A stretch of DNA of 64,000 nt from a virus. Of the stretch, positions 15,911 through 55,701 are shown piece by piece (within the stretch, counting starts at the first letter, position 1; every line of letters begins with the position of its first letter). Under the pieces are notes generated by a model. It was not told the DNA's origin. It worked only from the letters and a program-made list of their open reading frames with translations, and ran no database searches. The position numbers and the translations under genes are program-made. The stretch is from the IMG/VR virus record IMGVR_UViG_3300009873_000015, positions 4,847-68,846 of that record, one strand, 5' to 3'.

Positions 15911-16279
15911 AGTAACTCCCTCCGTTAACGAACCCTAAAAAAACTGGCCAGATAGCCAGTCACAAAATTAGCTGCCCAACCGTAGCCTCAGCCCTTTTGT
16001 TTGATTTTATTACTAATACCCATTCCCACTCCACCGTGGGTTTTTGATGCATGCATCCTTGGGCTACCAGCCCCGTGTCATATCCTTGTTTCTCCTGACG
16101 GGGTTTGCAGAAATAAAAAAGGGCTCCCAGATTGCTCCAGAAGCCCTAACCCTGCTACGAGTTTAAACACAAATATGAAAATCTTTAACAGTCCTTCGTA
16201 GCAGGAAGCTTTCTGTTAGCACAAATATAGGGTGCCAGACAGCCCTGCTCCAAATTTAATTTGTTAAAAGATTGTTAAG

Positions 16280-16350
16280 TGGGATAGGAGATACTCGAAA
16301 TCTCGTGCCTACGTTTTACAGACGTTGCTTAGTGCCCTGCTATCTATCCC
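16280..16350 (-). tRNA. tRNA-like, anticodon GTA (Tyr-like), 71 nt, atypical D-arm
   Basis: Perfect 7-bp acceptor stem GGGATAG/CTATCCC. T-arm GAGAT-TTCGAGT-ATCTC. Anticodon loop CTGTAAA on a 4-bp stem. The D-arm is poor. Confidence 0.45.
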
Positions 16351-16352
16351 AT

Positions 16353-16438
16353 TGGTTGGAAGGGTGGGATTCGAACCCACAAACTCCGAAGAGGGTGAGG
16401 TTACAGCTCACCTGCTTTAGCCGTTTGCATACCTGCCA
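16353..16438 (-). tRNA. tRNA-Tyr (GTA), type II with long variable arm, CCA encoded
   Basis: T-arm GTGGG-TTCGAAT-CCCAC. Anticodon stem-loop GTGAG-CTGTAAC-CTCAC. Variable arm CTC-TTCG-GAG. Confidence 0.65.
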
Positions 16439-16443
16439 ATGTG

Positions 16444-16529
16444 CGGAGAACAAGAGAGTCGAACTCTCACTACCCGAAGGTAGACCTACTTAGCAGGTAG
16501 GTGCAGCAAACCGTATCTGCCTATTCTCC
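16444..16529 (-). tRNA. tRNA-Ser (GCT), type II
   Basis: Acceptor GGAGAAT/GTTCTCC. Anticodon stem-loop CCTAC-CTGCTAA-GTAGG. Long variable arm. T-arm GAGAG-TTCGACT-CTCTT. Confidence 0.75.
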
Positions 16530-16590
16530 AATCGTAGTTTTTAGGTCATATCGAGGGACCGGAGTTACGAGCTCCAAAACTCGGGGTATG

Positions 16591-16687
16591 CGGTAGGCAG
16601 AGGACCCGACCCCCATTCAGTAGTGCTTGCTACCGAAGCCACGTTTTCAAGACGTGTCGCATCTCCAATGACGCTGCTTTACCTACC
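16591..16687 (-). tRNA. tRNA-like, possibly Ser (TGA), with non-canonical T-loop and extended D region
   Basis: Acceptor-like pairing GGTAGGT/GCCTACC. Perfect anticodon stem-loop CACGT-CTTGAAA-ACGTG. T-loop variant GTCGGGT has G at position 58. The region is GC-rich within an AT-rich array. Confidence 0.35.
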
Positions 16688-16693
16688 TTGTTG

Positions 16694-16767
16694 TGCTCTG
16701 AGTAGAATTCGAATCTACAAGAAACTCATTTTGAGTGAGTTATGTCTCCCAGTTGCATCATCAGAGC
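16694..16767 (-). tRNA. tRNA, anticodon CAA (Leu codon UUG) but short type-I variable loop
   Basis: Acceptor GCTCTGA/TCAGAGC. Anticodon stem-loop ACTCA-CTCAAAA-TGAGT. T-arm GTAGA-TTCGAAT-TCTAC. Variable loop 5 nt. Confidence 0.6.
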
Positions 16768-16770
16768 ATG

Positions 16771-16843
16771 TGCCTCCAACCAGATTCGAACTGGTAAACT
16801 GGGTGTTTAAGACCCATACGGTTCCCGATTACGTCATGAAGGC
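16771..16843 (-). tRNA. tRNA, anticodon TAA (Leu codon UUA), type-I variable loop
   Basis: Acceptor GCCTTCA/TGGAGGC. Anticodon stem-loop TGGGT-CTTAAAC-ACCCA. T-arm ACCAG-TTCGAAT-CTGGT. Confidence 0.6.
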
Positions 16844-16847
16844 ATGG

Positions 16848-16921
16848 TAGCTCCTAAGAGATTCGAACTCTTACTTACAACATCCTAAGTGTTGTGCCTC
16901 TCCCAGTTGGGCTAAGGAGCC
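16848..16921 (-). tRNA. tRNA, anticodon TAG (Leu codon CUA), type-I variable loop; CCA encoded
   Basis: Acceptor GGCTCCT/AGGAGCT. Anticodon stem-loop CAACA-CTTAGGA-TGTTG. T-arm AAGAG-TTCGAAT-CTCTT. Confidence 0.6.
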
Positions 16922-16949
16922 AAATAAAAACCCAGCTACATGAGCTGGG
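16922..16949 (-). terminator. Intrinsic terminator (minus strand) closing a mini-gene cassette
   Basis: Perfect 7-bp hairpin CCCAGCT(5-nt loop)AGCTGGG followed on the minus strand by TTTTTATTT. Confidence 0.55.
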
Positions 16950-16974
16950 TTTAAACATTTTGGTCAAGATATAA

Positions 16975-17040
16975 TTATCCCAGCTCTATATCCTTTGATA
17001 AGAGTGATAAACTGGAATAATATGAATTGATTCTTTTCAT
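16975..17040 (-). CDS. Leaderless mini-ORF (21 aa, MKRINSYYSSLSLLSKDIELG) between promoter and terminator
   Basis: ATG lies 5 nt after the -7 box TATCTTTG. Stop TAA is immediately before the terminator hairpin. Confidence 0.3.
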   Translation of the reverse strand: MKRINSYYSSLSLLSKDIELG

Positions 17041-17045
17041 GCTGC

Positions 17046-17077
17046 AAAGATACAACATAATGTAAGGGATTCCAAAT
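17046..17077 (-). promoter_or_regulatory. Bacteroidetes-type promoter (TTTG, 20-nt spacer, TATCTTTG), minus strand
   Basis: Spacing and motifs match the -33 TTTG / -7 TAnnTTTG sigma-A consensus of Bacteroidetes. Nine similar promoter-like sites were found in this window. Confidence 0.5.
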
Positions 17078-17180
17078 ATTTCTTCAATTATTTTTGTGCG
17101 TCGAAGCCAGTAATTGTGGTAACACCTTCACCAAGGTCTGCATTTGCACAACAAATATACGGAATTTCTGGGATTCTACC

Positions 17181-17214
17181 AAATAAAAAACCTACTGGCA
17201 GGGTTATCAGTAGG
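17181..17214 (-). terminator. Intrinsic terminator (minus strand) downstream of tRNA-Ala
   Basis: Hairpin CCTACTG(10-nt loop)CAGTAGG followed by TTTTTTATTT on the minus strand. Confidence 0.55.
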
Positions 17215-17220
17215 TTAAAT

Positions 17221-17293
17221 GTGGAGGATACCAGACTCGAACCGGTGACTCCTGCGTGCAAGGCAAGTGTGTTAGCCATCTATACTAATCCCC
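17221..17293 (-). tRNA. tRNA-Ala (TGC)
   Basis: GGGGGAT...CTTGCACGCAGGAG...GGTTCGAGTC...ATCCTCCA. This closely resembles bacterial tRNA-Ala. Confidence 0.75.
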
Positions 17294-17296
17294 CAT

Positions 17297-17728
17297 TTAG
17301 GTGGGTTTAAAGACATCAAGGAAGTCATCAAGCTTCAGAAGGGCCAAATCAGAGGTTTTGTCATCTCCTCCTCTTACTCTACGGTATCTGTCCCAATGTT
17401 GTATCAGATAGGCCCTGAGGTCACCTGTTGGGCAGTAGTAGATTCTTTTCAGAACGTAAAACCAAGTATCAGCTTTTGAGGTTGCTATACCCGAAGCTTT
17501 ACCTCTGCTCCTGTACTCAATGGCTACGTTTCCAGTTTTGTCCCACATCTGGTCATGCTTGACCTCTGCAGTCCTTTGTCTTCCGTCTCGGGTAGTGTAT
17601 GAAATATCGTACCTACCATCATCGTTTGTTTGGATGTCAGTGCATCCCTCCTCCTTCAGGAACTCAATCACCTGATTTACAGATGCTTCTGATTCCGGAA
17701 GGTCTTCCTTGAAGTTGTATTTTCCCAT
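17297..17728 (-). CDS. PD-(D/E)XK-like nuclease-fold protein (about 143 aa; track ORF trimmed to first ATG clear of tRNA-Ile)
   Basis: GRYDISYT...RTAEVKHD gives a D...E-x-K arrangement. The longer track ORF overlaps the tRNA-Ile gene. Confidence 0.35.
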   Translation of the reverse strand: MGKYNFKEDLPESEASVNQVIEFLKEEGCTDIQTNDDGRYDISYTTRDGRQRTAEVKHDQMWDKTGNVAIEYRSRGKASGIATSKADTWFYVLKRIYYCPTGDLRAYLIQHWDRYRRVRGGDDKTSDLALLKLDDFLDVFKPT

Positions 17729-17805
17729 GTTGGCAAGCTGGATTCCGAGACCAGATGACTGCCGTATCAGAGCAGCATAATAACCTTTATATGACCTGCC
17801 AATAA

Positions 17806-17880
17806 GTACTCTCAACTGGACTCGAACCAGTACATCGCCAAGGTATAAGCTTGGTGCTGTCACCATTTAGCTATGAGAGC
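17806..17880 (-). tRNA. tRNA-Ile (TAT), decodes AUA
   Basis: Anticodon stem-loop CCAAG-CTTATAC-CTTGG. T-arm ACTGG-TTCGAGT-CCAGT. Acceptor GCTCTCA/TGAGAGT. Confidence 0.65.
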
Positions 17881-17885
17881 AAGAG

Positions 17886-17959
17886 CGGAACCTACGGGAG
17901 TCGAACCCGCACCGCACGGCGTGACAAGCCGGCATTGTAAACCATTCAACCAAGGCTCC
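17886..17959 (-). tRNA. tRNA-Asp (GTC)
   Basis: Anticodon loop TTGTCAC. T-arm GCGGG-TTCGACT-CCCGT. Acceptor GGAGCCT/AGGTTCC. Confidence 0.7.
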
Positions 17960-17966
17960 GTATGTG

Positions 17967-18041
17967 TACCGCATAGGGGACTCGAACCCCTGATGATTGC
18001 AGTGAAAGTGCAATGACTTAAACCAACTTGTCCAATGCGGC
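17967..18041 (-). tRNA. tRNA-Glu (TTC)
   Basis: Anticodon stem-loop TTGCA-CTTTCAC-TGCAA. T-arm AGGGG-TTCGAGT-CCCCT. Confidence 0.7.
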
Positions 18042-18104
18042 AGCTTCTGTATGTGTCTTACCCCTTGGCAGTGTCACTTAAAGCCTAACAGAGAGGCTTC
18101 CGGG

Positions 18105-18176
18105 AGCAGTAGAAGAATTTCGAAATCTCAGCCTTCTCCTTGGCAAGGAGACGCTCTACCTTTGAGCTACTACTGC
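18105..18176 (-). tRNA. tRNA-Gly (GCC), T-stem carries a T-T mismatch next to the loop
   Basis: Acceptor GCAGTAG/CTACTGC with discriminator T. D-arm TAGCTCAAAGGTAGAGC. Anticodon stem-loop TCTCC-TTGCCAA-GGAGA. T-loop TTCGAAA. Confidence 0.6.
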
Positions 18177-18272
18177 TTGAAGTACACGTTGGTCACCAGT
18201 TATTTCCAGTTAGGGGTGACTCCACGAAACTGGCCAGATGTTAGCAGGACGTGTACCTTGCTAACCCACGAG

Positions 18273-18343
18273 AGCGGAACATCGGATTCGAACCGACACC
18301 AGAGACTTGGAAGGACCCTGAACTACCATTATTCTAATCCCGC
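18273..18343 (-). tRNA. tRNA-Gly (TCC)
   Basis: GCGGGAT...CTTCCAA loop...GTCGG-TTCGAAT-CCGAT...GTTCCGCT. Discriminator U as in Gly. Confidence 0.65.
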
Positions 18344-18437
18344 ATGGAGCAAGTCTGGCTTCTACTGAAGCTTTAGGTACCTCTCTTGGCAGAGGGGCAC
18401 TATGCTGCCACATAACAACCTCCAACTTGCCGAGAGG

Positions 18438-18911
18438 TTAACGATATAATTCTGGGTGTCTACATACGTGGTCAGCAGCTTTTGTGGCCAACTGTTCTCC
18501 ACTTTTGAACGATGCATTCATGTTCAGACCTTTTACCCATCCTTTAAGAGCTTGTACTACCGGAGTAGATTTTGTCTTCTTAATATTAGAGTAGTCAAAC
18601 TCAAGAGCTTCTATTGCTACTGGAATTTCTTCAGTAATCAATAATGCTGCATCAACTGTTCTTACACCTTCTGTGTATAAACGTGAATACAAGTCTCTTA
18701 TCTTTGGTACTTCATCTTTCAGGTAGACAAAATGTGCACCTCTATGACCATAACGATAACATATACATGTTATGTAACGTGTAATCTTACCGTAGTCTTG
18801 AGAGTCAGTACCTACATAGATTCTCAGATTAGGCCAGAGGTTAATCTGTTCTAATGTGTGTTCAACTACGTTGACTTTCTCACCAGTATTGGTTTTGAAG
18901 TACTTTTCCAT
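18438..18911 (-). CDS. Hypothetical protein (157 aa), possibly RNase-H-like fold (GTDS motif)
   Basis: N-terminal LRIYVGTDSQDYG. Promoter immediately upstream at 18916-18947. Confidence 0.35.
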   Translation of the reverse strand: MEKYFKTNTGEKVNVVEHTLEQINLWPNLRIYVGTDSQDYGKITRYITCICYRYGHRGAHFVYLKDEVPKIRDLYSRLYTEGVRTVDAALLITEEIPVAIEALEFDYSNIKKTKSTPVVQALKGWVKGLNMNASFKSGEQLATKAADHVCRHPELYR

Positions 18912-18915
18912 TCTG

Positions 18916-18947
18916 CAAATATAATACCTAACTGACCCAAAACCAAA
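18916..18947 (-). promoter_or_regulatory. Bacteroidetes-type promoter (TTTG, 20-nt spacer, TATATTTG) with ATG 4 nt downstream (leaderless)
   Basis: Minus strand reads AAATTTGG...TATATTTGcagaATG. Confidence 0.5.
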
Positions 18948-18953
18948 TTTATG

Positions 18954-19027
18954 TTGCGTATATCAGATTCGAACTGATGGATGGCACCTTATGAGAGTGC
19001 TGCCTTTGTCCACTTGGCTAATACGCA
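18954..19027 (-). tRNA. tRNA with CAT anticodon (Met or Ile2)
   Basis: Anticodon stem-loop GCACT-CTCATAA-GGTGC. T-arm ATCAG-TTCGAAT-CTGAT. Acceptor TGCGTAT/ATACGCA. Confidence 0.7.
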
Positions 19028-19033
19028 ATATAG

Positions 19034-19115
19034 AAGCGAGGGCAGGATTCGAACCTGCGTCCTTTACGGCATAGGCTTATGAGACCTCGGAGCTGGGCCA
19101 CTACTCGACCTCGCA
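19034..19115 (-). tRNA. tRNA, anticodon CAT, with unusual long variable region (82 nt)
   Basis: T-arm GCAGG-TTCGAAT-CCTGC. 3-bp D-stem with 11-nt loop. Anticodon loop CTCATAA. About 13-nt variable region. Acceptor has a mismatch at 1-72. Confidence 0.45.
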
Positions 19116-19116
19116 G

Positions 19117-19200
19117 CGTTTGGTATAGGATTCGAACCTATGATGGCTTAAAGCGTCAGCTTAACAGGCTGGACCATTCGACCTCTATGGCAAACCAAAC
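19117..19200 (-). tRNA. tRNA, anticodon GTT (Asn-type loop CTGTTAA) with long variable arm (84 nt)
   Basis: Acceptor GTTTGGT/ACCAAAC. T-arm ATAGG-TTCGAAT-CCTAT. Variable hairpin GCTT-TAA-AGC. Confidence 0.45.
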
Positions 19201-19245
19201 TTAAATAGTTTTGTACTACACGGAGAAATTATTAAAACTCACCTG

Positions 19246-19318
19246 TAGACCCAGAGGAGTACGATTCCCCACTAACTGTTTAGAAGACAGTTTTGCTATC
19301 CATTTACAACATGGGTCC
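19246..19318 (-). tRNA. tRNA-Arg (TCT) with non-canonical T-loop (ATCGTAC)
   Basis: Acceptor GGACCCA/TGGGTCT. Perfect anticodon stem-loop ACTGT-CTTCTAA-ACAGT. T-stem GGGGA/TCCTC. Confidence 0.5.
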
Positions 19319-19326
19319 ATTTCTTG

Positions 19327-19399
19327 TACACCTACTCCGATTCGAACGGAGGTTTCCACCTTGTAAGGATGGCACACTAAACCACTGTGTTATAGGTGC
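19327..19399 (-). tRNA. tRNA-Val (TAC)
   Basis: Anticodon loop CTTACAA. T-arm CTCCG-TTCGAAT-CGGAG. Acceptor GCACCTA/TAGGTGT. Confidence 0.7.
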
Positions 19400-19404
19400 A
19401 TATG

Positions 19405-19478
19405 TGCTCCCAGAGTGGTTCGAACACTCATCCTTCCGGTTAAGAGCCGGTAGCTACTTCCACATGAGCTTTGAGAGC
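19405..19478 (-). tRNA. tRNA-Lys (CTT)
   Basis: Anticodon loop CTCTTAA. T-arm GAGTG-TTCGAAC-CACTC. Its 5' part is overlapped by the 3' end of the HNH ORF. Confidence 0.6.
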
Positions 19479-19811
19479 ATTTAATCGTGCATGTTCTTCT
19501 TTATGACAGTTGGAACAAAGTAAAGTGCACTTGTCTACTTCTTTCTTTATTTTATTCCATGATGCTGTTTGTTTTGTCCCACTTATACCAAAATCTTTTT
19601 CATTTGGGTCGTTGTGATGAAACTCAAGAGCACCTATATACTTATTATAACCACAGTGTTCACATTTTCCCCCCTTGTGAGCAACTGCCATTTCTTTGAG
19701 CTTCTTACGTCTCTTGTCAACAGCTTCAACTACACACTTCTTGCACCTTGTATATCCGTCACTTCTTGTTGTGAACTCTGTTACTCCGTGCTTTTTACAA
19801 GTCTTTAACAT
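19440..19811 (-). mobile_element. HNH homing endonuclease (likely start MLKTC at about 19811); its 3' end overlaps tRNA-Lys(CTT)
   Basis: CEHCGY...EFHHNDPNEKDF...LLCSNCHKEEH. Upstream promoter-like TTTG, 20-nt spacer, TATCTTGG at 19833-19864. Confidence 0.65.
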
Positions 19812-19832
19812 TTGATTACTATAATTTAGTAA

Positions 19833-19864
19833 TCCAAGATACAAACTTTTTGTGAAACTACCAA
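19833..19864 (-). promoter_or_regulatory. Bacteroidetes-type promoter upstream of HNH gene
   Basis: Minus strand reads AAATAAATTTGG, 20-nt spacer, TATCTTGG. Confidence 0.4.
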
Positions 19865-19903
19865 ATTTATTTCAGCTCCATCTTTGAGCTTCGAGAGCTT
19901 GAG

Positions 19904-19976
19904 TACCGCCCGAGGGATTCGAACCCTCTATCCTCAGCTTAAAAGGCTGCAGCTTGTCCACATAAGCTCCGACGGT
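19904..19976 (-). tRNA. tRNA-Lys (TTT)
   Basis: Anticodon loop CTTTTAA. D-stem AGCT/AGCT. T-arm GAGGG-TTCGAAT-CCCTC. Confidence 0.65.
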
Positions 19977-20012
19977 AAATAAAAAACCCGGAGCTCTTGT
20001 GGAGGCTCCGGG
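19977..20012 (-). terminator. Intrinsic terminator (minus strand)
   Basis: Hairpin CCCGGAGC / GCTCCGGG followed by TTTTTTATTT on the minus strand. Confidence 0.55.
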
Positions 20013-20037
20013 CTTCAATTATTTGATAATCAACAAC

Positions 20038-20133
20038 TTAAATTAGTTCAGTATCAGACAATAGAATCCCGGAGCCATCTTTCTCAATGCCTCTCGCCAT
20101 CCCATTATCCACTACTATATATGAACTGTACAT
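20038..20133 (-). CDS. Mini-ORF (31 aa, MYSSYIVVDNGMARGIEKDGSGILLSDTELI) in a promoter-terminator cassette
   Basis: Lies between promoter 20165-20196 and terminator 19977-20012. Confidence 0.3.
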   Translation of the reverse strand: MYSSYIVVDNGMARGIEKDGSGILLSDTELI

Positions 20134-20144
20134 TGGTTGCAGTA

Positions 20145-20501
20145 TTAAATGTTTGTTTGTAATGCAAATATACGACTAAAATCTGGAATTTCCAAATTTA
20201 TTTTTGAATTTTCTTCTGGAGGCATTGTTGTAGTGCATGTAACGGACGTAGTTACATGCTCTTTCATAGCCTCTTGAAACAATTCCATTCCTCTTCTACC
20301 TGTCATTAAGGTAATCATTCTTGAGGATGGAATCTGATTAGTCTGCCATAGCTCCTGTAGAACCTGCTTCAATCTCTCCTCCGTCATCAAATGACGGTGT
20401 GGATTGTTCATCTGGTCGTACAAGGATTGTCTGCTGCTGGACTGTAAACTCGTTGTAAATGGGGAATCCCCATGCATTGCGGAGAACATTTCCATTTTCA
20501 T
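20145..20501 (-). CDS. Hypothetical ORF (118 aa) overlapping the upstream ORF in another frame; possible frameshifted 3' portion
   Basis: Its 164-nt overlap with 20338-20703 suggests either a frameshift or pseudogenisation. Confidence 0.3.
   Translation of the reverse strand: MKMEMFSAMHGDSPFTTSLQSSSRQSLYDQMNNPHRHLMTEERLKQVLQELWQTNQIPSSRMITLMTGRRGMELFQEAMKEHVTTSVTCTTTMPPEENSKINLEIPDFSRIFALQTNI
20165..20196 (-). promoter_or_regulatory. Bacteroidetes-type promoter (TTTG, 20-nt spacer, TATATTTG)
   Basis: Minus strand reads AAATAAATTTGGaaattccagattttagtcgTATATTTG. Confidence 0.5.
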
Positions 20502-20667
20502 CCCTTTTAAACTTATGACGAAATGTTTGTTTACCAGCCAAATAGGCTTTCAGGTGCTTGGTATGAAAATTTATTCCATCCCTTCCCTCTTTCTCCAGAA
20601 TTTCCTTGTAGTTCTGAGCAGTAATTGTTACTCCCAGATACTTTCTTGTGTACTTCTGCTTTTCCAT
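20338..20667 (-). CDS. Hypothetical protein (start MEKQKY at 20667, leaderless with promoter 20673-20704)
   Basis: Minus strand reads TATATTTGcagatATG. The track ORF is extended upstream by a TTG alternative start. Confidence 0.4.
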   Translation of the reverse strand: MEKQKYTRKYLGVTITAQNYKEILEKEGRDGINFHTKHLKAYLAGKQTFRHKFKRDENGNVLRNAWGFPIYNEFTVQQQTILVRPDEQSTPSFDDGGEIEAGSTGAMAD

Positions 20668-20672
20668 ATCTG

Positions 20673-20704
20673 CAAATATATGGTGCAGATATGGTAAAAC
20701 CAAA
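20673..20704 (-). promoter_or_regulatory. Bacteroidetes-type promoter (TTTG, 20-nt spacer, TATATTTG)
   Basis: Minus strand reads AAATAAATTTGGttttaccatatctgcaccaTATATTTG. Confidence 0.5.
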
Positions 20705-20750
20705 TTTATTTTTGGTACTCCGTGACAGATTCGAACTTTCTAAGTCCAGT
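20704..20750 (-). pseudogene. Orphan tRNA 3' fragment (T-arm plus acceptor 3' strand) resembling the 3' half of the adjacent tRNA-Arg
   Basis: GAAAGTTCGAATCTGTCACGGAGTACC versus tRNA-Arg GAGAGTTCGAATCTTTCACGGGGTACA. No matching 5' half is present. Confidence 0.4.
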
Positions 20751-21273
20751 ATTGATTTTGCCTTTCAATAGCTTGTTTTATTGACTCTATGGGAAGACCC
20801 TTATATTCTGTACCCCGTGAAAGATTCGAACTCTCAAAATCTCCTGATTCGTATTCAGGTGCTGTATCCGGTTTAGCTAACGGGGCATTATGTCTTCTTC
20901 TATGACAATTTGGACAGAGAGGAACACATTTGTCCACCTCTTCCATTATCTTCTTCATAGAAGATTCTTTAAGGTTTGAAAGATTATAGTCTTTCGTAGA
21001 TGGGTCTAAATGGTGAAACTCACACATATATGGCTCATCTTTAAATGACATTTCACAATCTGTACAAGAAAGTGTTCTTTTGAAGTCCATAAATCTTTCC
21101 TTATAAGATTTGTTATTCTTCTTAGACTTCTTTATATAGTATTGAACATTCTTGTTATAATGTTCTTTTATCTTCTTCCTTCTGCAATCTTTGCAGTATC
21201 CAACTTTTCGGTTTGCTCTTTGGTCAAATTCAGATTCTGGTTTAACCAGTTTACATTCAGTACATTGTCTCAT
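20740..21273 (-). mobile_element. HNH homing endonuclease (start MRQCTECK at 21273); C-terminal tail reads through tRNA-Arg
   Basis: CKDCRRKK...CEFHHLDPSTKD...PLCPNCHRRRHN. Leaderless promoter TATATTTGtttcATG. Confidence 0.65.
20811..20886 (-). tRNA. tRNA-Arg (ACG)
   Basis: Anticodon stem-loop CCTGA-ATACGAA-TCAGG. T-arm GAGAG-TTCGAAT-CTTTC. Lies inside the 3' tail of the HNH ORF. Confidence 0.7.
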
Positions 21274-21277
21274 GAAA

Positions 21278-21309
21278 CAAATATACGAAAAAGCTACGAA
21301 CCCACCAAA
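21278..21309 (-). promoter_or_regulatory. Bacteroidetes-type promoter (TTTG, 20-nt spacer, TATATTTG) flanked by a 10-bp inverted repeat
   Basis: Inverted repeat GCTACGAACC...GGTTCGTAGC (21293-21330) brackets the -33 element. Confidence 0.45.
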
Positions 21310-21365
21310 TTTATTTTCATGGTTCGTAGCCACAGATTCTCATCCATTGAACTAACGGAGCATGG

Positions 21366-21439
21366 GGTGATATACGAGATTCGAACTCGCACTACCTGAC
21401 TCACAATCAGGCGTGTTAAACCATTACACTAATACCACC
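21366..21439 (-). tRNA. tRNA-His (GTG)
   Basis: Anticodon stem-loop CCTGA-TTGTGAG-TCAGG. Discriminator C. T-arm GCGAG-TTCGAAT-CTCGT. Confidence 0.7.
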
Positions 21440-21446
21440 ATGTTGG

Positions 21447-21517
21447 ATGTCCTACTTGGATTCGAACCAAGAACCTTTGAGTCAGAGTCAAAGATGTTAC
21501 CGTTACACCATAAGACA
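21447..21517 (-). tRNA. tRNA-Gln (CTG)
   Basis: Anticodon stem-loop TTTGA-CTCTGAC-TCAAA. T-arm CTTGG-TTCGAAT-CCAAG. Confidence 0.65.
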
Positions 21518-21523
21518 ATATGG

Positions 21524-21594
21524 ATGCCTCCGTGGGACTCGAACCCACAACCACCACGCTCAAAACGTGAGATGTTGCATTACACCAAGAGGCA
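21524..21594 (-). tRNA. tRNA-Gln (TTG)
   Basis: Anticodon stem-loop TCACG-TTTTGAG-CGTGG. T-arm GTGGG-TTCGAGT-CCCAC. Confidence 0.65.
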
Positions 21595-21630
21595 GTTTTG
21601 GCCAGTTATAATTTTTATAGTTGGCCATTG

Positions 21631-21704
21631 CACGGATGGAAGGACTCGAACCCTCGCTTACTTGGTTTTGGAGACCAAAGCTCTACCAACTGAGCTACAC
21701 CCGT
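21631..21704 (-). tRNA. tRNA-Trp (CCA)
   Basis: D-arm TAGCTCAGTTGGTAGAGC. Anticodon stem-loop TTGGT-CTCCAAA-ACCAA. T-arm GAGGG-TTCGAGT-CCTTC. Confidence 0.75.
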
Positions 21705-21710
21705 GTGTGG

Positions 21711-21782
21711 TGGTGATGGAGGATTCCGAGACCCCGACGCCAAGCTCTTCAGGCTTGCGCTCTACCGCTGAGCTACATCACC
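21711..21782 (-). tRNA. tRNA-Phe (GAA) with non-canonical T-loop (G58)
   Basis: Acceptor GGTGATG/CATCACC. D-arm TAGCTCAGCGGTAGAGC. Anticodon stem-loop CAAGC-CTGAAGA-GCTTG. T-region GGGG-TCTCGGAAT-CCTC. Confidence 0.65.
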
Positions 21783-21861
21783 ATATGCCGTTTTTGTTTA
21801 AGGAGTGCTAACTCCCCTGCCTTATGGGAGGAGCAGGTGGTTATTTCAAACGGAACCAGAG

Positions 21862-21936
21862 AGTCGGTAGTCAGATTCGAACTGACGATTGTGTGGTTTT
21901 GCAGACCAGTGCCTTTGTCCACTCAGCCATACCGAC
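21862..21936 (-). tRNA. tRNA-Cys (GCA)
   Basis: Anticodon loop CTGCAAA. T-arm GTCAG-TTCGAAT-CTGAC. Acceptor GTCGGTA/TACCGAC. Confidence 0.7.
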
Positions 21937-21946
21937 ATATTATTGG

Positions 21947-22021
21947 AGCCTATGACAAGAGTCGAACTTGCAACCCCCCGCTTACAAGGCGGGAGCTCTG
22001 CCAAAATTGAGCTACATAGGC
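21947..22021 (-). tRNA. tRNA-Thr (TGT), CCA encoded
   Basis: Anticodon stem-loop CCCGC-CTTGTAA-GCGGG. T-arm GCAAG-TTCGACT-CTTGT. Confidence 0.7.
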
Positions 22022-22029
22022 ATGTTATG

Positions 22030-22102
22030 CTCCAGAGGTCGGACTCGAACCAACATATGCTTCATTACAAGTGAAGTCCTGTACCAATTGAGGCACTCCG
22101 GA
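22030..22102 (-). tRNA. tRNA-Thr (TGT), second divergent copy
   Basis: Anticodon stem-loop CTTCA-CTTGTAA-TGAAG. T-arm GTTGG-TTCGAGT-CCGAC. Confidence 0.6.
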
Positions 22103-22107
22103 ATCAG

Positions 22108-22194
22108 TCGGGTAAACAGGACTCGAACCTGCATTGAGCTATTAACTACTTCTCGTTTCCAAAACGAGTCGGCTTCCATTGCCTTCATTACCCG
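22108..22194 (-). tRNA. tRNA, anticodon TGG (Pro-type) with a 19-nt variable region (87 nt)
   Basis: Perfect anticodon stem-loop CTCGT-TTTGGAA-ACGAG. T-arm GCAGG-TTCGAGT-CCTGT. Acceptor CGGGTAA/TTACCCG. Confidence 0.45.
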
Positions 22195-22201
22195 AAATAT
22201 G

Positions 22202-22273
22202 TCGAGTAGAATAGATTCGAACTATCACGTTCCTGCTCCCAAAGCAGGGGGGCTACCGTTACCCTACTACTCG
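22202..22273 (-). tRNA. tRNA-Pro (TGG)
   Basis: Anticodon stem-loop CCTGC-TTTGGGA-GCAGG. T-arm GATAG-TTCGAAT-CTATT. Confidence 0.7.
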
Positions 22274-46503: not shown

Positions 46504-47139
46504 TCAATCTATTTTATCAACCGTGCCATAATTTGGTACCGACCTCACATGATAAGTAGTTAGAGTAGATTCTGACTTGATTCCTTTACCGTTCTCCATT
46601 ATAAATTGTATAAAGTCCCAGTCATGTCCATACTTATCCTGATGTGGAGGGGCCTTTCTGGCAAGTTCTGTTTTAACAATTATTTCACTATGTCCTATAG
46701 CAGAAGGAGCTAATTTTGAAATTCTGGCTCCTTTCAGAGGACTTATATAAGAATTGAAGTACATATAATCCCAATCAGTATTCTCAATCTCAAGATAGTG
46801 GGAGAAATGTATGGGTTCAATAAGGTCGTCATTTGCAAAGAAAATTAAATATTTACCACGGGCATTCTGAATAGCAAAGTTAGTTTGCTTGTATCCGCAA
46901 CCTCCAGTATGCTTTTCAGCATTGAAAGCAACTATCTTATTACCCTTGAGTTTAGCCTCAATCTGTTTAGACTCTATCCACCCTGAATCTATAAGCTTCT
47001 GAAAATCAGGACACTTATCTCCAATTAAGATAGCTTCCCAGCCATTTGTGTCCTGAGCCAGAATAGCCTCAATGGCTCTCTTCGTCCGTTCCGGACGTCT
47101 CCAAATTGGCATTGAAACTGTTAATCTGTAGTTGCTCAT
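46504..47139 (-). CDS. Glycosyltransferase family 2-like protein (211 aa)
   Basis: N-terminal SMPIWRRPERTKRAIEAILAQ...ILIGDKCPD and a later NDD (DxD) motif. This is the GT-A fold pattern. Confidence 0.5.
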   Translation of the reverse strand: MSNYRLTVSMPIWRRPERTKRAIEAILAQDTNGWEAILIGDKCPDFQKLIDSGWIESKQIEAKLKGNKIVAFNAEKHTGGCGYKQTNFAIQNARGKYLIFFANDDLIEPIHFSHYLEIENTDWDYMYFNSYISPLKGARISKLAPSAIGHSEIIVKTELARKAPPHQDKYGHDWDFIQFIMENGKGIKSESTLTTYHVRSVPNYGTVDKID

Positions 47140-47666
47140 TTAGGTTGGTTTGGACCAATGTCCTTAGCAGGGACACCAGCATATTTCCTGTAGGGTTCCA
47201 TTTCCAGCTTCTTAGTTACGGCTGCATTCATACCAATCATACAACCCTCAGGGACCTCAACCCACTGATGGATACAGGAGTTCAGACCCAAGTTGCACTT
47301 AGGATTAATTATAGCATGTCCACCAACCTTAGCTCCACAAGAAACAGTTACCCCATCTCCTATTACCGAGTCGTGCCCAGCATGGGAATGTTTTAAAAAC
47401 CAGCAGTTATTACCAATACTTGTTAGGTGCTCAGTACCTGCATCTATGGTTACATGGCCAGTAAATACGTTATTATCACCAATCTCTACCTGACCTGTTG
47501 GCTTATCCCAATAAGCTTTGTGCTCTGCAGGAAATCCTATAATACAAAAGGGTCCTATGTAGTTATTGTTGCCCATTTTAACATTTGGGCCTATTACTGC
47601 TGTTGGGTGAATGATATTTCCATTTCCCCAGTCATCAAGATATTCTTTCATGTTTGTATATTCCAT
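47136..47666 (-). CDS. Hexapeptide-repeat (left-handed beta-helix) acyltransferase-like protein
   Basis: Repeated [LIV]G-x-x-x-x hexads: IGPNVKMGNNNYIGPFCIIG...IGDNNVFTGHVTIDAG...IGNNCWF...VIGDGVTV. Confidence 0.55.
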   Translation of the reverse strand: MEYTNMKEYLDDWGNGNIIHPTAVIGPNVKMGNNNYIGPFCIIGFPAEHKAYWDKPTGQVEIGDNNVFTGHVTIDAGTEHLTSIGNNCWFLKHSHAGHDSVIGDGVTVSCGAKVGGHAIINPKCNLGLNSCIHQWVEVPEGCMIGMNAAVTKKLEMEPYRKYAGVPAKDIGPNQPK

Positions 47667-55616: not shown

Positions 55617-55687
55617 TGTCCTTTGGTGTAATGGTAGCACAACTGGTTTTGGTCCAGTTAGTTGAGGTTCGAATCCTTAAGGGACAA
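55617..55687 (+). tRNA. tRNA-Gln (TTG), the only plus-strand tRNA, isolated in the accessory region
   Basis: TGTCCTTTGGTGTAATGGTAGCACAACTGGTTTTGGTCCAGT...GAGGTTCGAATCCTTAAGGGACAA. Anticodon loop TTTTGGT. T-loop TTCGAAT. Confidence 0.65.
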
Positions 55688-55701
55688 CTAAACTATTTAA
55701 T

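What the first reader, a model, noticed from the sequence alone, without database searches (positions are those of the whole stretch)
16280..22273. About 32-gene minus-strand tRNA array with non-standard architectures
Hand folding shows most tRNAs are canonical, but several are not.

- Three tRNAs carry Leu anticodons (CAA, TAA, TAG) yet have short type-I variable loops.
- Extra copies with Pro-type (TGG), Met-type (CAT) and Asn-type (GTT) anticodons instead carry long variable regions, and a canonical Pro(TGG) sits next to its long-armed copy.
- Tyr(GTA), Thr(TGT), Gln(TTG) and Lys occur as divergent duplicates.
- Four tRNAs have non-TTCGAAT T-loops. Phe, Arg(TCT) and the Ser(TGA)-like gene have G58 or T58, and Gly(GCC) has a T-T pair at the top of the T-stem.

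This could reflect a phage tRNA set under selection to evade host anticodon nucleases or tRNA-targeting defences, or simply decaying paralogues. Either way it is unusual.
Basis: partly seen in the sequence, partly recalled or inferred. Interest (0 to 1): 0.65.

Follow-up and report, generated by a model that had tools for sequence, protein, structure and literature searches.

The report
Phage tRNA array with reshaped tRNAs
A crAss-like phage carries 32 tRNA genes for all 20 amino acids, and several have lost or gained the "extra arm" that normally separates the two tRNA classes; related phages keep these odd shapes, so most are working variants rather than decaying copies.

Summary
ARAGORN finds 30 minus-strand tRNAs at 16279-22273, and 32 at relaxed thresholds. 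Rfam confirms 28. The three Leu-anticodon tRNAs have 4-5-nt variable loops. One Pro, one Met and the only Asn tRNA have 13-19-nt variable regions.

The window is a crAss-like phage. Thirteen syntenic arrays from relatives show that most oddities are inherited and kept by compensatory change.

- **Arm-less tRNA-Leu:** this is the rule in the clade (28 of 33). It keeps the E. coli Leu identity set (A73, A14, A15:U48, G18G19) and also occurs in Felix-O1-like phages, a cyanophage and many bacterial genomes. It is real but not rare.
- **72-nt Tyr:** it belongs to a conserved non-canonical family (13 of 19 pairs covary).
- **Long Asn:** it belongs to a widespread phage family with a tRNA-Tyr-like body, a GUU anticodon and G73. 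In Cellulophaga phage phi4:1 the family member is annotated as a pseudogene.
- **Long Met:** it is initiator-like.

The Pro insertion is seen only in this window, and the Ser(TGA)-like gene looks damaged.

Conserved Asn, Leu, Pro and Tyr positions use standard codons, so recoding is not indicated. Evasion of host defences remains conjecture.

The parts
22201..22273 (-). tRNA-Pro(UGG), canonical, 73 nt; C1:G72, A73, G37
   Evidence: ARAGORN; Rfam 58.1 bits; identical copy in L017
22107..22194 (-). Second tRNA-Pro(UGG), 88 nt, 17-19-nt variable region; 2-bp D stem; A37; C1:G72, A73
   Evidence: ARAGORN; Rfam 37.7 bits with a 16-nt insertion in the V region; the L017 orthologue (75 nt) has A37 and a weak D stem but no insertion
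22029..22102 (-). tRNA-Thr(UGU), copy 1, 74 nt
   Evidence: 54.7 bits
21944..22021 (-). tRNA-Thr(UGU), copy 2, 78 nt including CCA
   Evidence: 63.2 bits; the same pair of Thr genes occurs in L017
21861..21936 (-). tRNA-Cys(GCA), U73
   Evidence: 52.9 bits
21709..21783 (-). tRNA-Phe(GAA) with T loop CTCGGAA (C54, G58) and U53.U61
   Evidence: (51.7 bits, 21711-21782); identical in L017; the same T arm with a compensated anticodon stem occurs in L021
21630..21704 (-). tRNA-Trp(CCA)
   Evidence: 61.9 bits
21521..21594 (-). tRNA-Gln(UUG)
   Evidence: 45.4 bits
21444..21517 (-). tRNA-Gln(CUG)
   Evidence: 57.6 bits
21363..21438 (-). tRNA-His(GUG), with G-1 and C73
   Evidence: (62.4 bits)
20810..20886 (-). 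tRNA-Arg(ACG)
   Evidence: 49.3 bits
19903..19976 (-). tRNA-Lys(UUU)
   Evidence: 40.1 bits
19404..19478 (-). tRNA-Lys(CUU)
   Evidence: 43.7 bits
19326..19399 (-). tRNA-Val(UAC)
   Evidence: 61.0 bits
19245..19318 (-). tRNA-Arg(UCU) with T loop ATCGTAC (A54/U58 in place of the usual U54/A58)
   Evidence: (47.5 bits)
19116..19200 (-). tRNA-Asn(GUU), 85 nt, 14-nt variable region, G73, 3-nt spacer before the D stem. Member of a phage family with a tRNA-Tyr-like body. The only Asn tRNA in the array
   Evidence: 37.8 bits; homologues in Cellulophaga phage phi4:1 and 12 IMG/VR contigs; covariation; closeness to tRNA-Tyr
19033..19115 (-). Initiator-like tRNA(CAU), 83 nt, 13-nt variable region; U1xU72 mismatch; A11:U24; 2 of the 3 G:C pairs in the anticodon stem
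   Evidence: 39.9 bits; alignment with E. coli tRNA-fMet; the long arm is shared by L017 and L021
18953..19027 (-). tRNA-Met(CAU), elongator-like, 75 nt, A73
   Evidence: Rfam 57.7 bits with permissive filters; conserved at 75 nt in most relatives
18438..18911 (-). ORF of 157 aa inside the array, RNaseH_like (PF04308)
   Evidence: Pfam E = 1.2e-14; a PF04308 gene sits in the array of every relative whose locus covers the array
18272..18343 (-). tRNA-Gly(UCC), U73
   Evidence: 50.2 bits
18102..18177 (-). tRNA-Gly(GCC) with U53.U61 and T loop TTCGAAA
   Evidence: (60.1 bits); the same T arm occurs in L019 and L024 with different acceptor and anticodon stems
17966..18041 (-). tRNA-Glu(UUC)
   Evidence: 60.3 bits
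17885..17959 (-). tRNA-Asp(GUC), G73
   Evidence: 54.0 bits
17806..17880 (-). tRNA-Ile(UAU)
   Evidence: 61.8 bits
17729..17801 (-). tRNA-Ile(GAU), A/U-only D stem, T loop CTCGGAA as in Phe
   Evidence: found by ARAGORN only at a relaxed threshold; syntenic with Ile(GAU) of relatives; not found by Rfam
17221..17294 (-). tRNA-Ala(UGC), G3:U70
   Evidence: 52.0 bits
16845..16921 (-). tRNA-Leu(UAG), class-I shape, 5-nt variable loop, A73, A15:U48
   Evidence: Rfam 55.9 bits; ~80% identical to the tRNA-Leu of Felix-O1-like phages
16770..16843 (-). tRNA-Leu(UAA), class-I shape, 4-nt variable loop, A73, U48
   Evidence: Rfam 53.6 bits
16693..16767 (-). tRNA-Leu(CAA), class-I shape, 5-nt variable loop, A73, A15:U48
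   Evidence: Rfam 49.1 bits
16590..16683 (-). Ser(UGA)-like gene, 94 nt; only 4 of 7 acceptor pairs; T loop GTCGGGT. Probably impaired
   Evidence: found by ARAGORN only at -ps88; not found by Rfam; a related T arm with an intact acceptor occurs in L145
16443..16529 (-). tRNA-Ser(GCU), class II, 5-bp variable stem, G73
   Evidence: ARAGORN; conserved in all relatives whose locus reaches this end of the array; not found by Rfam
16353..16438 (-). tRNA-Tyr(GUA), bacterial class II shape, 86 nt, A73
   Evidence: 43.6 bits; orthologues in L012, L017, L024, L145 and L146
16279..16350 (-). Compact non-canonical tRNA(GUA), 72 nt. One nucleotide between acceptor and D stem, 3-bp D stem, D loop CAGGGCA, 4-nt linker, 4-bp anticodon stem, 5-nt variable loop, A73
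   Evidence: ARAGORN; not found by Rfam; family covariation (100% paired, 13 of 19 pairs with double changes); six more members in IMG/VR

Best explanation
This is the tRNA gene array of a crAss-like phage. It holds 32 genes in 6 kb, lies on the same strand as the structural (late) genes, and has at least one tRNA for each of the 20 amino acids.

Most genes are working tRNAs. The non-standard ones are inherited structural variants, not folding errors and mostly not decay.

1. **Three tRNA-Leu have lost the long variable arm** but keep the class-II-type D arm and the nucleotides that E. coli LeuRS reads (A73, A14, A15:U48, G18G19).
2. **One of the two tRNA-Tyr is a compact form** with a shifted 3-bp D stem.
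3. **The only tRNA-Asn has a tRNA-Tyr-like body.** Its anticodon (GUA to GUU) and discriminator (A73 to G73) now match Asn identity.
4. **One CAU tRNA is initiator-like** and carries an inserted variable arm.
5. **Several tRNAs have altered T loops** that relatives also keep.

Inferred mechanism: the tRNAs are transcribed with late genes, matured by host enzymes, charged by host synthetases according to their anticodons, and used to translate phage mRNAs. The changes of body plan fall where the cognate synthetase does not look. Consistent with that, the arm is always kept in tRNA-Ser, sometimes lost in Tyr, and nearly always lost in Leu.

Whether the altered shapes also protect the phage tRNAs from enzymes that recognise tRNA shape is conjecture.
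For: **Phage context.** Terminase, portal and capsid hits, crAss tail-ring proteins 1 and 2, and crAss-like TerL relatives.

**Synteny.** Thirteen arrays share the same gene order downstream of a 58-83% identical 370-aa protein.

**Leu.**
- 28 of 33 Leu tRNAs in the clade have a variable region of 7 nt or less. The other 5 have 11-13-nt mini-arms. None has a full arm.
- All 36 short Leu tRNAs collected have A73, U8, A15, U48 and GG in the D loop; 35 of 36 have A14.
- 97.5% of their stem positions form standard pairs, with 4-5 pair types at most stem positions.
- E. coli Leu identity is A73, A15:U48, G18G19 and A20a, and the arm is dispensable (PMC9976931).
- tRNAscan-SE isotype models score Leu highest for the Leu tRNAs of phage Sf14 (PMC12482277). 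Sf14's Leu(UAG) matched the window's Leu(UAG) at about 80% identity.

**Ser.** 21 of 22 keep the long arm.

**Short Tyr.** 100% of 95 cells are paired, 13 of 19 pairs have changes on both sides, and 0 of 500 shuffles reach this. Six more members carry further D-stem variants.

**Long Asn.**
- 98.8% of cells are paired, 12 of 21 pairs have double changes, and G73 is invariant.
- E. coli tRNA-Tyr is the closest non-family tRNA in a pool of 1,233 for two typical members.
- The anticodon arm differs from E. coli tRNA-Tyr only at position 36.

**Initiator-like Met.** It aligns with E. coli tRNA-fMet. An independent initiator-like tRNA with a 7-bp arm exists in L156.

**Odd T loops** are conserved in relatives.

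**Standard code.** In the 370-aa protein, conserved Asn (7/7), Leu (6/6), Pro (9/9) and Tyr (7/7) columns use standard codons.
Against: - No expression, processing or charging data exist for any of these genes.
- E. coli LeuRS did not charge the arm-less tRNA-Leu(CAA) of S. coelicolor (PMC6614811). Acceptance by the unknown host's LeuRS is therefore not guaranteed.
- Bacterial TyrRS normally contacts the long arm (own knowledge), so charging of the compact Tyr is uncertain.
- The Pro insertion is seen only in this window.
- The window's Asn copy is the most diverged member of its family, and its nearest neighbour in the pool is not a Tyr tRNA.
- The Ser(UGA)-like gene has a damaged acceptor stem.
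- The initiator-like tRNA has only 2 of the 3 hallmark G:C pairs.
- The codon test used one protein only.
Confidence: 0.72

Rival explanations
1. The odd genes are decaying paralogues. Phage tRNAs are dispensable, so extra copies accumulate deletions, insertions and T-loop damage.
For: - The Ser(UGA)-like gene pairs at only 4 of 7 acceptor positions, and both Rfam and default ARAGORN miss it.
- The 17-19-nt insertion in the second Pro is absent from its L017 orthologue, its stem is weak and the D stem has 2 bp.
- The long-arm tRNAs score only 37-40 bits in Rfam.
Against: - The arm-less Leu, short Tyr, long Asn, long Met and odd Phe and Gly T arms recur across genomes with compensatory changes.
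- In several genomes the odd form is the only tRNA of that isotype: short Tyr in L001, L021, L023 and L147; long Asn in the window and, within the array examined, in phi4:1.
- Acceptor, anticodon and T stems of the long Asn and long Met are intact.
Confidence: 0.12
2. The long-arm tRNAs are deliberate mistranslators or recoders, like nematode nev-tRNAs or bacterial allo-tRNAs. A class-II body would be charged by TyrRS, SerRS or LeuRS and would insert that amino acid at Asn, Met or Pro codons.
For: - The Asn family keeps a tRNA-Tyr-like body.
- SerRS and LeuRS do not read the anticodon (PMC9976931).
- Class II tRNAs with non-Leu/Ser anticodons are documented in nematodes (PMC3333845).
- tRNAs with unusual cloverleaf structures are reported in bacteria and, according to the abstract as I remember it in full, their phages (PMC5389517).
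Against: - In the Asn family the discriminator is invariant G73 (Asn identity), not the A73 of Tyr.
- The long Pro has C1:G72 and A73, which are Pro identity (identity rule from own knowledge).
- Variable stems are only 2-4 bp and are followed by 4 unpaired bases, unlike the phage's own tRNA-Ser.
- The architecture is 7/5, not 8/4 or 9/3.
- Conserved Asn, Leu, Pro and Tyr columns of a conserved protein use standard codons in the window.
Confidence: 0.05
3. Some odd tRNAs are not used in translation. They would act as decoys or inhibitors for host tRNA-targeting toxins or tRNA-modifying enzymes, or as processing or punctuation signals in the transcript.
For: - Phage tRNAs have been proposed to counter tRNA-targeting defences (PMC10264068).
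- At least one bacterial toxin, MenT3, uses a long variable loop as its anchor (PMC11541572).
- Several odd forms sit beside a canonical copy, for example Pro and Tyr in the window and Asn in L151, L156 and L158.
Against: - The odd forms keep intact acceptor stems, anticodon loops (U33 and a purine at 37) and isotype-appropriate discriminators. A decoy would not need these.
- They are often the only gene for their amino acid in the array.
Confidence: 0.07

Closest known systems
Phage tRNA gene arrays (T5, Felix-O1-like phages, Cellulophaga phage phi4:1, crAss-like phages); 'tRNA array units' of at least 20 genes at 2 or more per kb (PMC4758250)
   Same: Dense one-strand cluster (32 genes, 5.3 per kb) on a phage genome. 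It has roughly one U34 tRNA per four-codon box and small ORFs interspersed. Felix-O1-like phages and phi4:1 also contain arm-less Leu tRNAs.
   Different: It belongs to a divergent crAss-like lineage: TerL is about 26% identical to named Crassvirales and there is no nucleotide match in GenBank phages. It combines several body-plan changes in one array.
Type I tRNA-Leu(CAA) of Streptomyces coelicolor (PMC6614811)
   Same: A Leu-anticodon tRNA with a short variable loop in a bacterial translation system. A bacterial LeuRS was shown to charge such a tRNA.
   Different: - In the window array all three Leu tRNAs are arm-less, and the clade has no full-armed Leu tRNA.
- A73 is strictly conserved here, whereas the S. 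coelicolor enzyme does not use A73.
- The host is probably a Bacteroidota member.
- E. coli LeuRS could not charge the Streptomyces tRNA, so host compatibility is open.
Nematode nev-tRNAs (PMC3333845) and bacterial allo-tRNAs (PMC5389517)
   Same: Long variable arm combined with an anticodon for an amino acid other than Leu, Ser or Tyr.
   Different: - nev-tRNAs are charged with Leu (own knowledge).
- allo-tRNAs carry Ser identity on 8/4 or 9/3 bodies.
- The phage tRNAs are 7/5, and their discriminators match the anticodon (G73 for Asn, A73 with C1:G72 for Pro).
- No recoding signal was found.
tRNA remoulding (alloacceptor anticodon shift), known from mitochondria and shown experimentally in E. 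coli (own knowledge)
   Same: A tRNA of one isotype (a Tyr-type body) takes over another codon family through an anticodon point change (A36 to U).
   Different: Here the shift crosses tRNA classes, is accompanied by a discriminator change to the new identity, and defines a family spread across many phages rather than one genome.
Phage T5 tRNAs that escape anticodon nucleases through anticodon-loop changes (PMC10264068)
   Same: Phage tRNAs that differ from the bacterial norm, possibly under pressure from tRNA-targeting defences.
   Different: The differences here are in body plan (variable arm, D arm, T loop), not in the anticodon loop. No defence system or host tRNA was available for comparison.

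Membership tests
tRNA array unit (PMC4758250) | At least 20 tRNA genes at a density of at least 2 per kb | tested here: met
   30-32 genes in 5,995 bases, about 5 per kb
crAss-like (Crassvirales-type) phage | crAss-type terminase, portal, major capsid and tail-ring proteins | tested here: met
   phrog_6681, phrog_6547 and phrog_11589; CrAss_Ring_1 and CrAss_Ring_2 above the Pfam cut-off; TerL tblastn hits are almost all crAss-like or Bacteroidota phages, at about 26% identity or less
Class I (short-arm) tRNA-Leu | Leu anticodon with a 4-5-nt variable loop in an otherwise complete cloverleaf | tested here: met
   ARAGORN and Rfam agree
Class I (short-arm) tRNA-Leu | Leu identity nucleotides as defined in E. 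coli: A73, A14, A15:U48, G18G19 | tested here: met
   Present in all three window genes. 36 of 36 short Leu tRNAs have A73, A15, U48 and GG; 35 of 36 have A14. Rule taken from PMC9976931
Class I (short-arm) tRNA-Leu | Leucylation by the host LeuRS | not testable with these tools
   Needs an aminoacylation assay. The precedent is mixed: S. coelicolor LeuRS charges such a tRNA, E. coli LeuRS does not (PMC6614811)
Bacterial initiator tRNA (for 19033-19115) | No Watson-Crick pair at 1:72 | tested here: met
   U1xU72. Orthologues have CxA (L012, L015) or UxU (L017, L146)
Bacterial initiator tRNA (for 19033-19115) | A11:U24 in the D stem | tested here: met
   D stem GAGU/GCUC, as in the GAGC/GCUC of E. 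coli tRNA-fMet
Bacterial initiator tRNA (for 19033-19115) | Three consecutive G:C pairs at the bottom of the anticodon stem | tested here: not met
   Only G29:C41 and G30:C40; the third pair is U31.G39. Orthologues in L022, L145 and L146 do have GGG:CCC
Bacterial initiator tRNA (for 19033-19115) | Class I variable loop of 5 nt | tested here: not met
   13-nt variable region
nev-tRNA / allo-tRNA type mistranslating class II tRNA | Identity elements of Leu or Ser combined with a foreign anticodon; allo-tRNAs have an 8/4 or 9/3 acceptor/T architecture | tested here: not met
   7/5 architecture. The discriminator matches the anticodon's amino acid. Variable stems are 2-4 bp
nev-tRNA / allo-tRNA type mistranslating class II tRNA | Insertion of a non-cognate amino acid at the codons read | tested here: inconclusive
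   Conserved Asn, Pro, Leu and Tyr columns use standard codons in one protein. This argues against reassignment but cannot exclude low-level misincorporation
Bacterial class II tRNA-Tyr (for the Asn family's body) | Long variable arm, Tyr-type D arm and anticodon arm, GUA anticodon, A73 | tested here: not met
   The body matches: E. coli tRNA-Tyr is the best of 1,233 tRNAs for two members. The anticodon is GUU and the discriminator G73 in all 8 distinct members. It is derived from, not a member of, tRNA-Tyr
tRNA pseudogene | Broken stems and no conservation or covariation in relatives | tested here: not met
   Not met for Leu x3, short Tyr, long Asn, long Met, Phe and Gly(GCC). Possibly met for the Ser(UGA)-like gene at 16590-16683

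The most novel reading that the evidence does not exclude
Phage tRNA arrays may systematically switch tRNA class. They remove the long arm from Leu and Tyr and add one to Asn, initiator Met and others: Trp, Gln, Asp, Glu, Cys and Val were seen in other phage contigs. The phage tRNA pool would then differ in shape from the host pool. That would let shape-reading enzymes tell the two pools apart, whether they are host tRNA-targeting toxins or a phage activity that destroys host tRNAs. It would be a structural self/non-self mark on tRNAs.
Probability: 0.15. Interest if true: 0.85.

Novelty: new variant of a known kind. Interest (0 to 1): 0.58.

Why it matters
Bacterial tRNA-Leu, -Ser and -Tyr are textbook long-arm tRNAs, and all other isotypes are short-arm. 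This array and its relatives show that phages break the rule in both directions, in conserved and compensated lineages.

The pattern follows what each synthetase needs. The arm is kept in Ser, optional in Tyr, and lost in Leu.

Two of the families have members in culturable systems, so charging, modification and resistance to tRNA-targeting defences can be tested directly:
- the Tyr-bodied tRNA-Asn in Cellulophaga phage phi4:1, where GenBank calls it a pseudogene;
- the arm-less tRNA-Leu in Felix-O1-like coliphages.

The results also show that standard annotation (Rfam tRNA model, pseudogene flags) misses or dismisses functional-looking phage tRNAs.

Tried and rejected
- **Nucleotide search in GenBank phages.** Megablast of the whole array found nothing.
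- **Searches with the flanking protein.** The metagenome contigs and viral-contig scans returned only one relative, the same contig in both. Relatives had to be fetched through the protein database instead.
- **Long initiator-like tRNA.** An exact-pattern scan of IMG/VR found nothing.
- **Short Tyr.** blastn against GenBank phages found nothing.
- **Suppressor remnant.** I looked for a remnant of the amber-suppressor tRNA that six relatives carry, in the 299-nt gap at 16922-17220. None was found.
- **Idea rejected: the long Pro is a disguised tRNA-Leu** (A73, Leu-like D loop). Its acceptor stem is Pro-type (C1:G72), and it has a short-armed Pro orthologue in L017.
- **Idea rejected: the window's short Tyr has lost its D stem.** The family alignment shows a shifted but fully compensated 3-bp stem.
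- **False positives set aside.** An ARAGORN 'Pro, 87 nt' in L019 at relaxed threshold lies inside the flanking protein gene. A 'Phe(aaa)' call in L017 at the same relaxed threshold was also left out.
- **Literature searches.** The term sets used for phage tRNAs with changed variable arms found no paper describing this. That is not proof of absence.

Full report
**1. The observation**

ARAGORN at default settings reports 30 tRNA genes, all on the minus strand, from 16279 to 22273, plus one tRNA-Gln on the plus strand at 55617. At relaxed thresholds it adds Ile(GAT) at 17729-17801 and a 94-nt Ser(TGA)-like gene at 16590-16683.

The Rfam tRNA covariance model reaches its gathering score for 27 array members with default filters and for 28 with permissive filters. 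It misses the short Tyr, Ser(GCT), Ile(GAT) and the Ser(TGA)-like gene.

A table of every arm of every gene bears out the hand folding almost point for point.
- The three Leu-anticodon tRNAs have 4-5-nt variable loops.
- The second Pro(TGG), one Met(CAT) and Asn(GTT) have variable regions of 13-19 nt.
- For those three, Rfam's alignment independently places insertions of 16, 10 and 10 nt in the variable region.
- Phe, Arg(TCT), the Ser(TGA)-like gene and Gly(GCC) have the T-arm deviations described. Ile(GAT) shares the Phe loop.

- Asn(GTT) is the only Asn gene, not an extra copy.
- The two CAT genes are different kinds.
- The Lys pair and the array's Gln pair are isoacceptors, not duplicates.

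**2. Context**

The window is a phage. It carries a large terminase, portal, major capsid and virion protein and crAss tail-ring proteins 1 and 2 above the Pfam cut-off.

TerL is only about 26% identical to named crAss-like phages. Nearly all of its hits are crAss-like or Bacteroidota phages. There is no nucleotide match in GenBank phages.

The array lies inside the structural gene block on the same strand, bracketed by terminator-like hairpins. The tRNA set has at least one gene for each of the 20 amino acids, typically one U34 tRNA per four-codon box. The phage uses all Leu codons.

**3. Relatives**

The 370-aa protein just upstream of the array has 231 homologues. I fetched 12 related genomes, 58-83% identical in that protein, on contigs of up to 168 kb. 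They carry crAss ring-protein genes.

All carry the array in the same place and the same gene order, with 24-33 tRNAs. The tRNA sequences themselves have diverged a great deal, which makes the comparison informative.

**4. Arm-less tRNA-Leu**

In the 13 arrays, 28 of 33 Leu-anticodon tRNAs have a variable region of 7 nt or less. The other five (four Leu(UAG) and one Leu(UAA)) have 11-13-nt mini-arms with 2-3-bp stems. None has a full arm. By contrast 21 of 22 Ser tRNAs keep the long arm.

Across 36 short Leu tRNAs from these and other phages:
- A73, U8, A15, U48 and the D-loop GG are invariant, and A14 is present in 35 of 36.
- The D arm is the 3-bp stem plus 11-nt NAAYUGGNAGA loop typical of bacterial long-arm tRNA-Leu.
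- 97.5% of stem positions form standard pairs, with 4-5 pair types at most positions.

These are the elements that define Leu identity in E. coli, where the arm is dispensable (PMC9976931). The simplest reading is stepwise deletion of an arm that LeuRS does not need.

This is not rare.
- A pattern scan found such genes in seven IMG/VR contigs.
- blastn found them in 110 GenBank phage records, mostly Felix-O1-like coliphages. In phage wV8 all three annotated tRNA-Leu are 77-79 nt. A cyanophage also has them.
Some are single genes on Actinomycetota chromosomes; others sit inside dense tRNA arrays in many phyla.
- A type I tRNA-Leu is documented in Streptomyces coelicolor. Its LeuRS charges it, but E. 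coli LeuRS does not (PMC6614811).
- tRNAscan-SE isotype models rank Leu first for the Leu tRNAs of phage Sf14 (PMC12482277). Sf14's Leu(UAG) matched the window's Leu(UAG) at about 80% identity.

**5. The 72-nt Tyr**

Rfam does not see this gene, but it is not decay. Homologues in L001, L021, L023 and L147 are the only Tyr tRNA in those arrays.

The five sequences fit one unusual fold:
- 7-bp acceptor stem;
- a single spacer base;
- a 3-bp D stem;
- the D loop CAGGGCA;
- a 4-nt linker;
- a 4-bp anticodon stem flanked by a conserved A.A;
- a 5-nt variable loop (7 nt in L001);
- a normal T arm;
- A73.

All 95 cells form standard pairs. 13 of 19 pairs show changes on both sides, including all three D-stem pairs. 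No shuffle out of 500 reaches this. Six more IMG/VR contigs carry the family with three further D-stem sequences.

The window is the only one of the 13 arrays with both this form and the ordinary 86-nt bacterial-type Tyr.

**6. The long Asn**

All ten relatives compared at that stage have an ordinary 72-76-nt Asn with a conserved UCC-type acceptor stem. The three fetched later also have Asn genes of normal length, 72-76 nt. The window's gene is unrelated to them.

blastn found its homologue in Cellulophaga phage phi4:1, where GenBank labels it tRNA-OTHER/tRNA-Pseudo. A pattern scan found 12 IMG/VR contigs of 9.6-374 kb, one of which is phi4:1 itself.

The eight distinct sequences share an almost invariant D arm, anticodon arm and CCAUC junction, an invariant G73, and a 3-nt spacer before the D stem. 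Their acceptor stems all differ and are fully compensated: 98.8% of cells are paired, 12 of 21 pairs have double changes, and 0 of 500 shuffles reach this.

For two typical members, the nearest tRNA in a pool of 1,233 is E. coli tRNA-Tyr (that sequence was verified). The anticodon arm CAGACUGUUAAUCUG differs from that of E. coli tRNA-Tyr only at position 36.

So this is a Tyr-type body whose anticodon (GUA to GUU) and discriminator (A73 to G73) have both moved to the Asn identity set. The window's copy is the most diverged member. Its own nearest neighbours in the pool are other long-arm tRNAs, so its membership rests on the shared architecture, the blastn hit and the covariation.

**7. The long Met and the long Pro**

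The 83-nt CAU tRNA aligns with E. coli tRNA-fMet through the acceptor stem and D arm (that sequence was verified). It has a U1xU72 mismatch and A11:U24, but only two of the three G:C pairs in the anticodon stem.

Its orthologues elsewhere carry CxA or UxU mismatches and, in some, the full GGG:CCC. The 13-14-nt arm is shared by L017 and L021, with one compensated pair.

An unrelated contig (L156) has a CAU tRNA with all three initiator hallmarks and a 7-bp arm. I therefore call the window gene initiator-like, not a proven initiator.

The long Pro has Pro-type C1:G72 and A73, A37 instead of G37, and a 2-bp D stem. Its L017 orthologue shares those traits but has no insertion. The insertion is therefore recent and of unknown consequence.

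**8. T loops and the Ser(UGA)-like gene**

- The Phe T arm (U53.U61, CUCGGAA) is identical in L017. It is retained in L021 beside a compensated anticodon stem.
- The Gly(GCC) U53.U61 arm recurs in L019 and L024.
- The Ser(UGA)-like gene pairs at only 4 of 7 acceptor positions. A relative with a similar T arm (L145) has an intact acceptor. The window copy is probably impaired.

**9. Recoding test**

I aligned the 370-aa protein with 118 homologues. Columns at least 90% conserved as Asn (7), Leu (6), Pro (9) and Tyr (7) are all encoded by the standard codons in the window.

Together with the isotype-appropriate discriminators, this argues against sense-codon reassignment. It is one protein only and cannot exclude low-level misincorporation.

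**10. Interpretation**

*Shown:*
- this is a phage tRNA array;
- the flagged architectures are real;
- most are conserved lineages under compensatory evolution;
- they carry the identity nucleotides that match their anticodons.

*Inferred:*
- host synthetases charge them normally, and they serve late translation;
- arm loss or gain is tolerated where the synthetase does not read the arm, which fits the order Ser (kept), Tyr (optional), Leu (lost).

*Conjecture:* the altered shapes protect against shape-reading tRNA-targeting enzymes. The only support is by analogy. Phage T5 tRNAs escape anticodon nucleases through anticodon-loop changes (PMC10264068), and the toxin MenT3 anchors on a long variable loop (PMC11541572).

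Other phage contigs fetched here also hold long-arm versions of Trp, Gln, Asp, Glu, Cys and Val tRNAs. Class switching therefore looks like a general property of phage arrays. With the search terms used, I found no paper describing it.

**11. Verdict**

The finding is confirmed as an observation. The array itself is an ordinary kind of thing, and arm-less tRNA-Leu is already known and common.

The conserved compact Tyr family, the Tyr-bodied Asn family and the long-armed initiator-like tRNAs are, as far as I could find, undescribed variants. They are directly testable in cultured phages.

Noticed in passing
window 18438-18911 (-); also L012, L015, L017, L019, L021-L024, L145-L147: A small RNaseH_like (PF04308) gene sits inside the tRNA array, downstream of the elongator-type Met. 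It is present in every related array examined. It could be a tRNA-processing or tRNA-related enzyme.
   Followed up: partly
L001 15367-15439; L017 16426; L019 9985; L022 19701; L024 14938; L145 15998: Six relatives carry an amber-suppressor tRNA(CUA), mostly between Ala and Leu. This suggests TAG recoding in those phages. The window has none, and no remnant in the 299-nt gap at 16922-17220.
   Followed up: partly
L024 15037-15492; L145 16097-16498; L146 17284-17841: Weak PTH2 (peptidyl-tRNA hydrolase) Pfam hits on ORFs inside the arrays of three relatives. None was found in the window's array ORFs.
   Followed up: no
window 55617-55688 (+): A lone tRNA-Gln(UUG), 72 nt and 61.6 bits in Rfam, lies 33 kb from the array on the opposite strand. 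It duplicates the anticodon of the array's Gln(UUG).
   Followed up: no
window 22307-22284, 16952-16928, 16147-16120 (-): Terminator-like hairpins lie just upstream of the first tRNA, just upstream of Leu(UAG), and about 130 nt downstream of the last tRNA. They may mark transcription or processing units within the array.
   Followed up: no
window ~50000: GC skew and coding strand both switch sign near 50 kb. Genes are on the minus strand before it and on the plus strand after it. This may be a divergent transcription boundary or a replication origin or terminus.
   Followed up: no
L156 (IMG/VR 3300031521_000714); L158; L150/L160; L003; L154: Other phage contigs hold well-formed long-arm versions of Met, initiator-like Met (7-bp arm), Asp, Glu, Cys, Gln, Trp and Val tRNAs, often next to a normal-length copy. 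Arm gain seems widespread in phage arrays.
   Followed up: partly
window 16443-16529 (-): tRNA-Ser(GCU) is conserved in all relatives whose locus reaches that end of the array, but the Rfam tRNA model misses it even at E = 5. ARAGORN folds it with one base between the acceptor and D stems and two bases after the D stem, a shift like that of the compact Tyr.
   Followed up: no
window 46504-47666 (-): A glycosyltransferase family 2 gene lies adjacent to a hexapeptide-repeat acyltransferase gene in the phage genome. They may modify host surface polysaccharide or the virion.
   Followed up: no
L025-L144 (bacterial genomes): Short-arm tRNA-Leu genes occur as single chromosomal genes in many Actinomycetota (Nocardia, Mycobacterium, Micromonospora, Corynebacterium, Bifidobacteriaceae). 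This reaches well beyond the one published Streptomyces case.
   Followed up: partly
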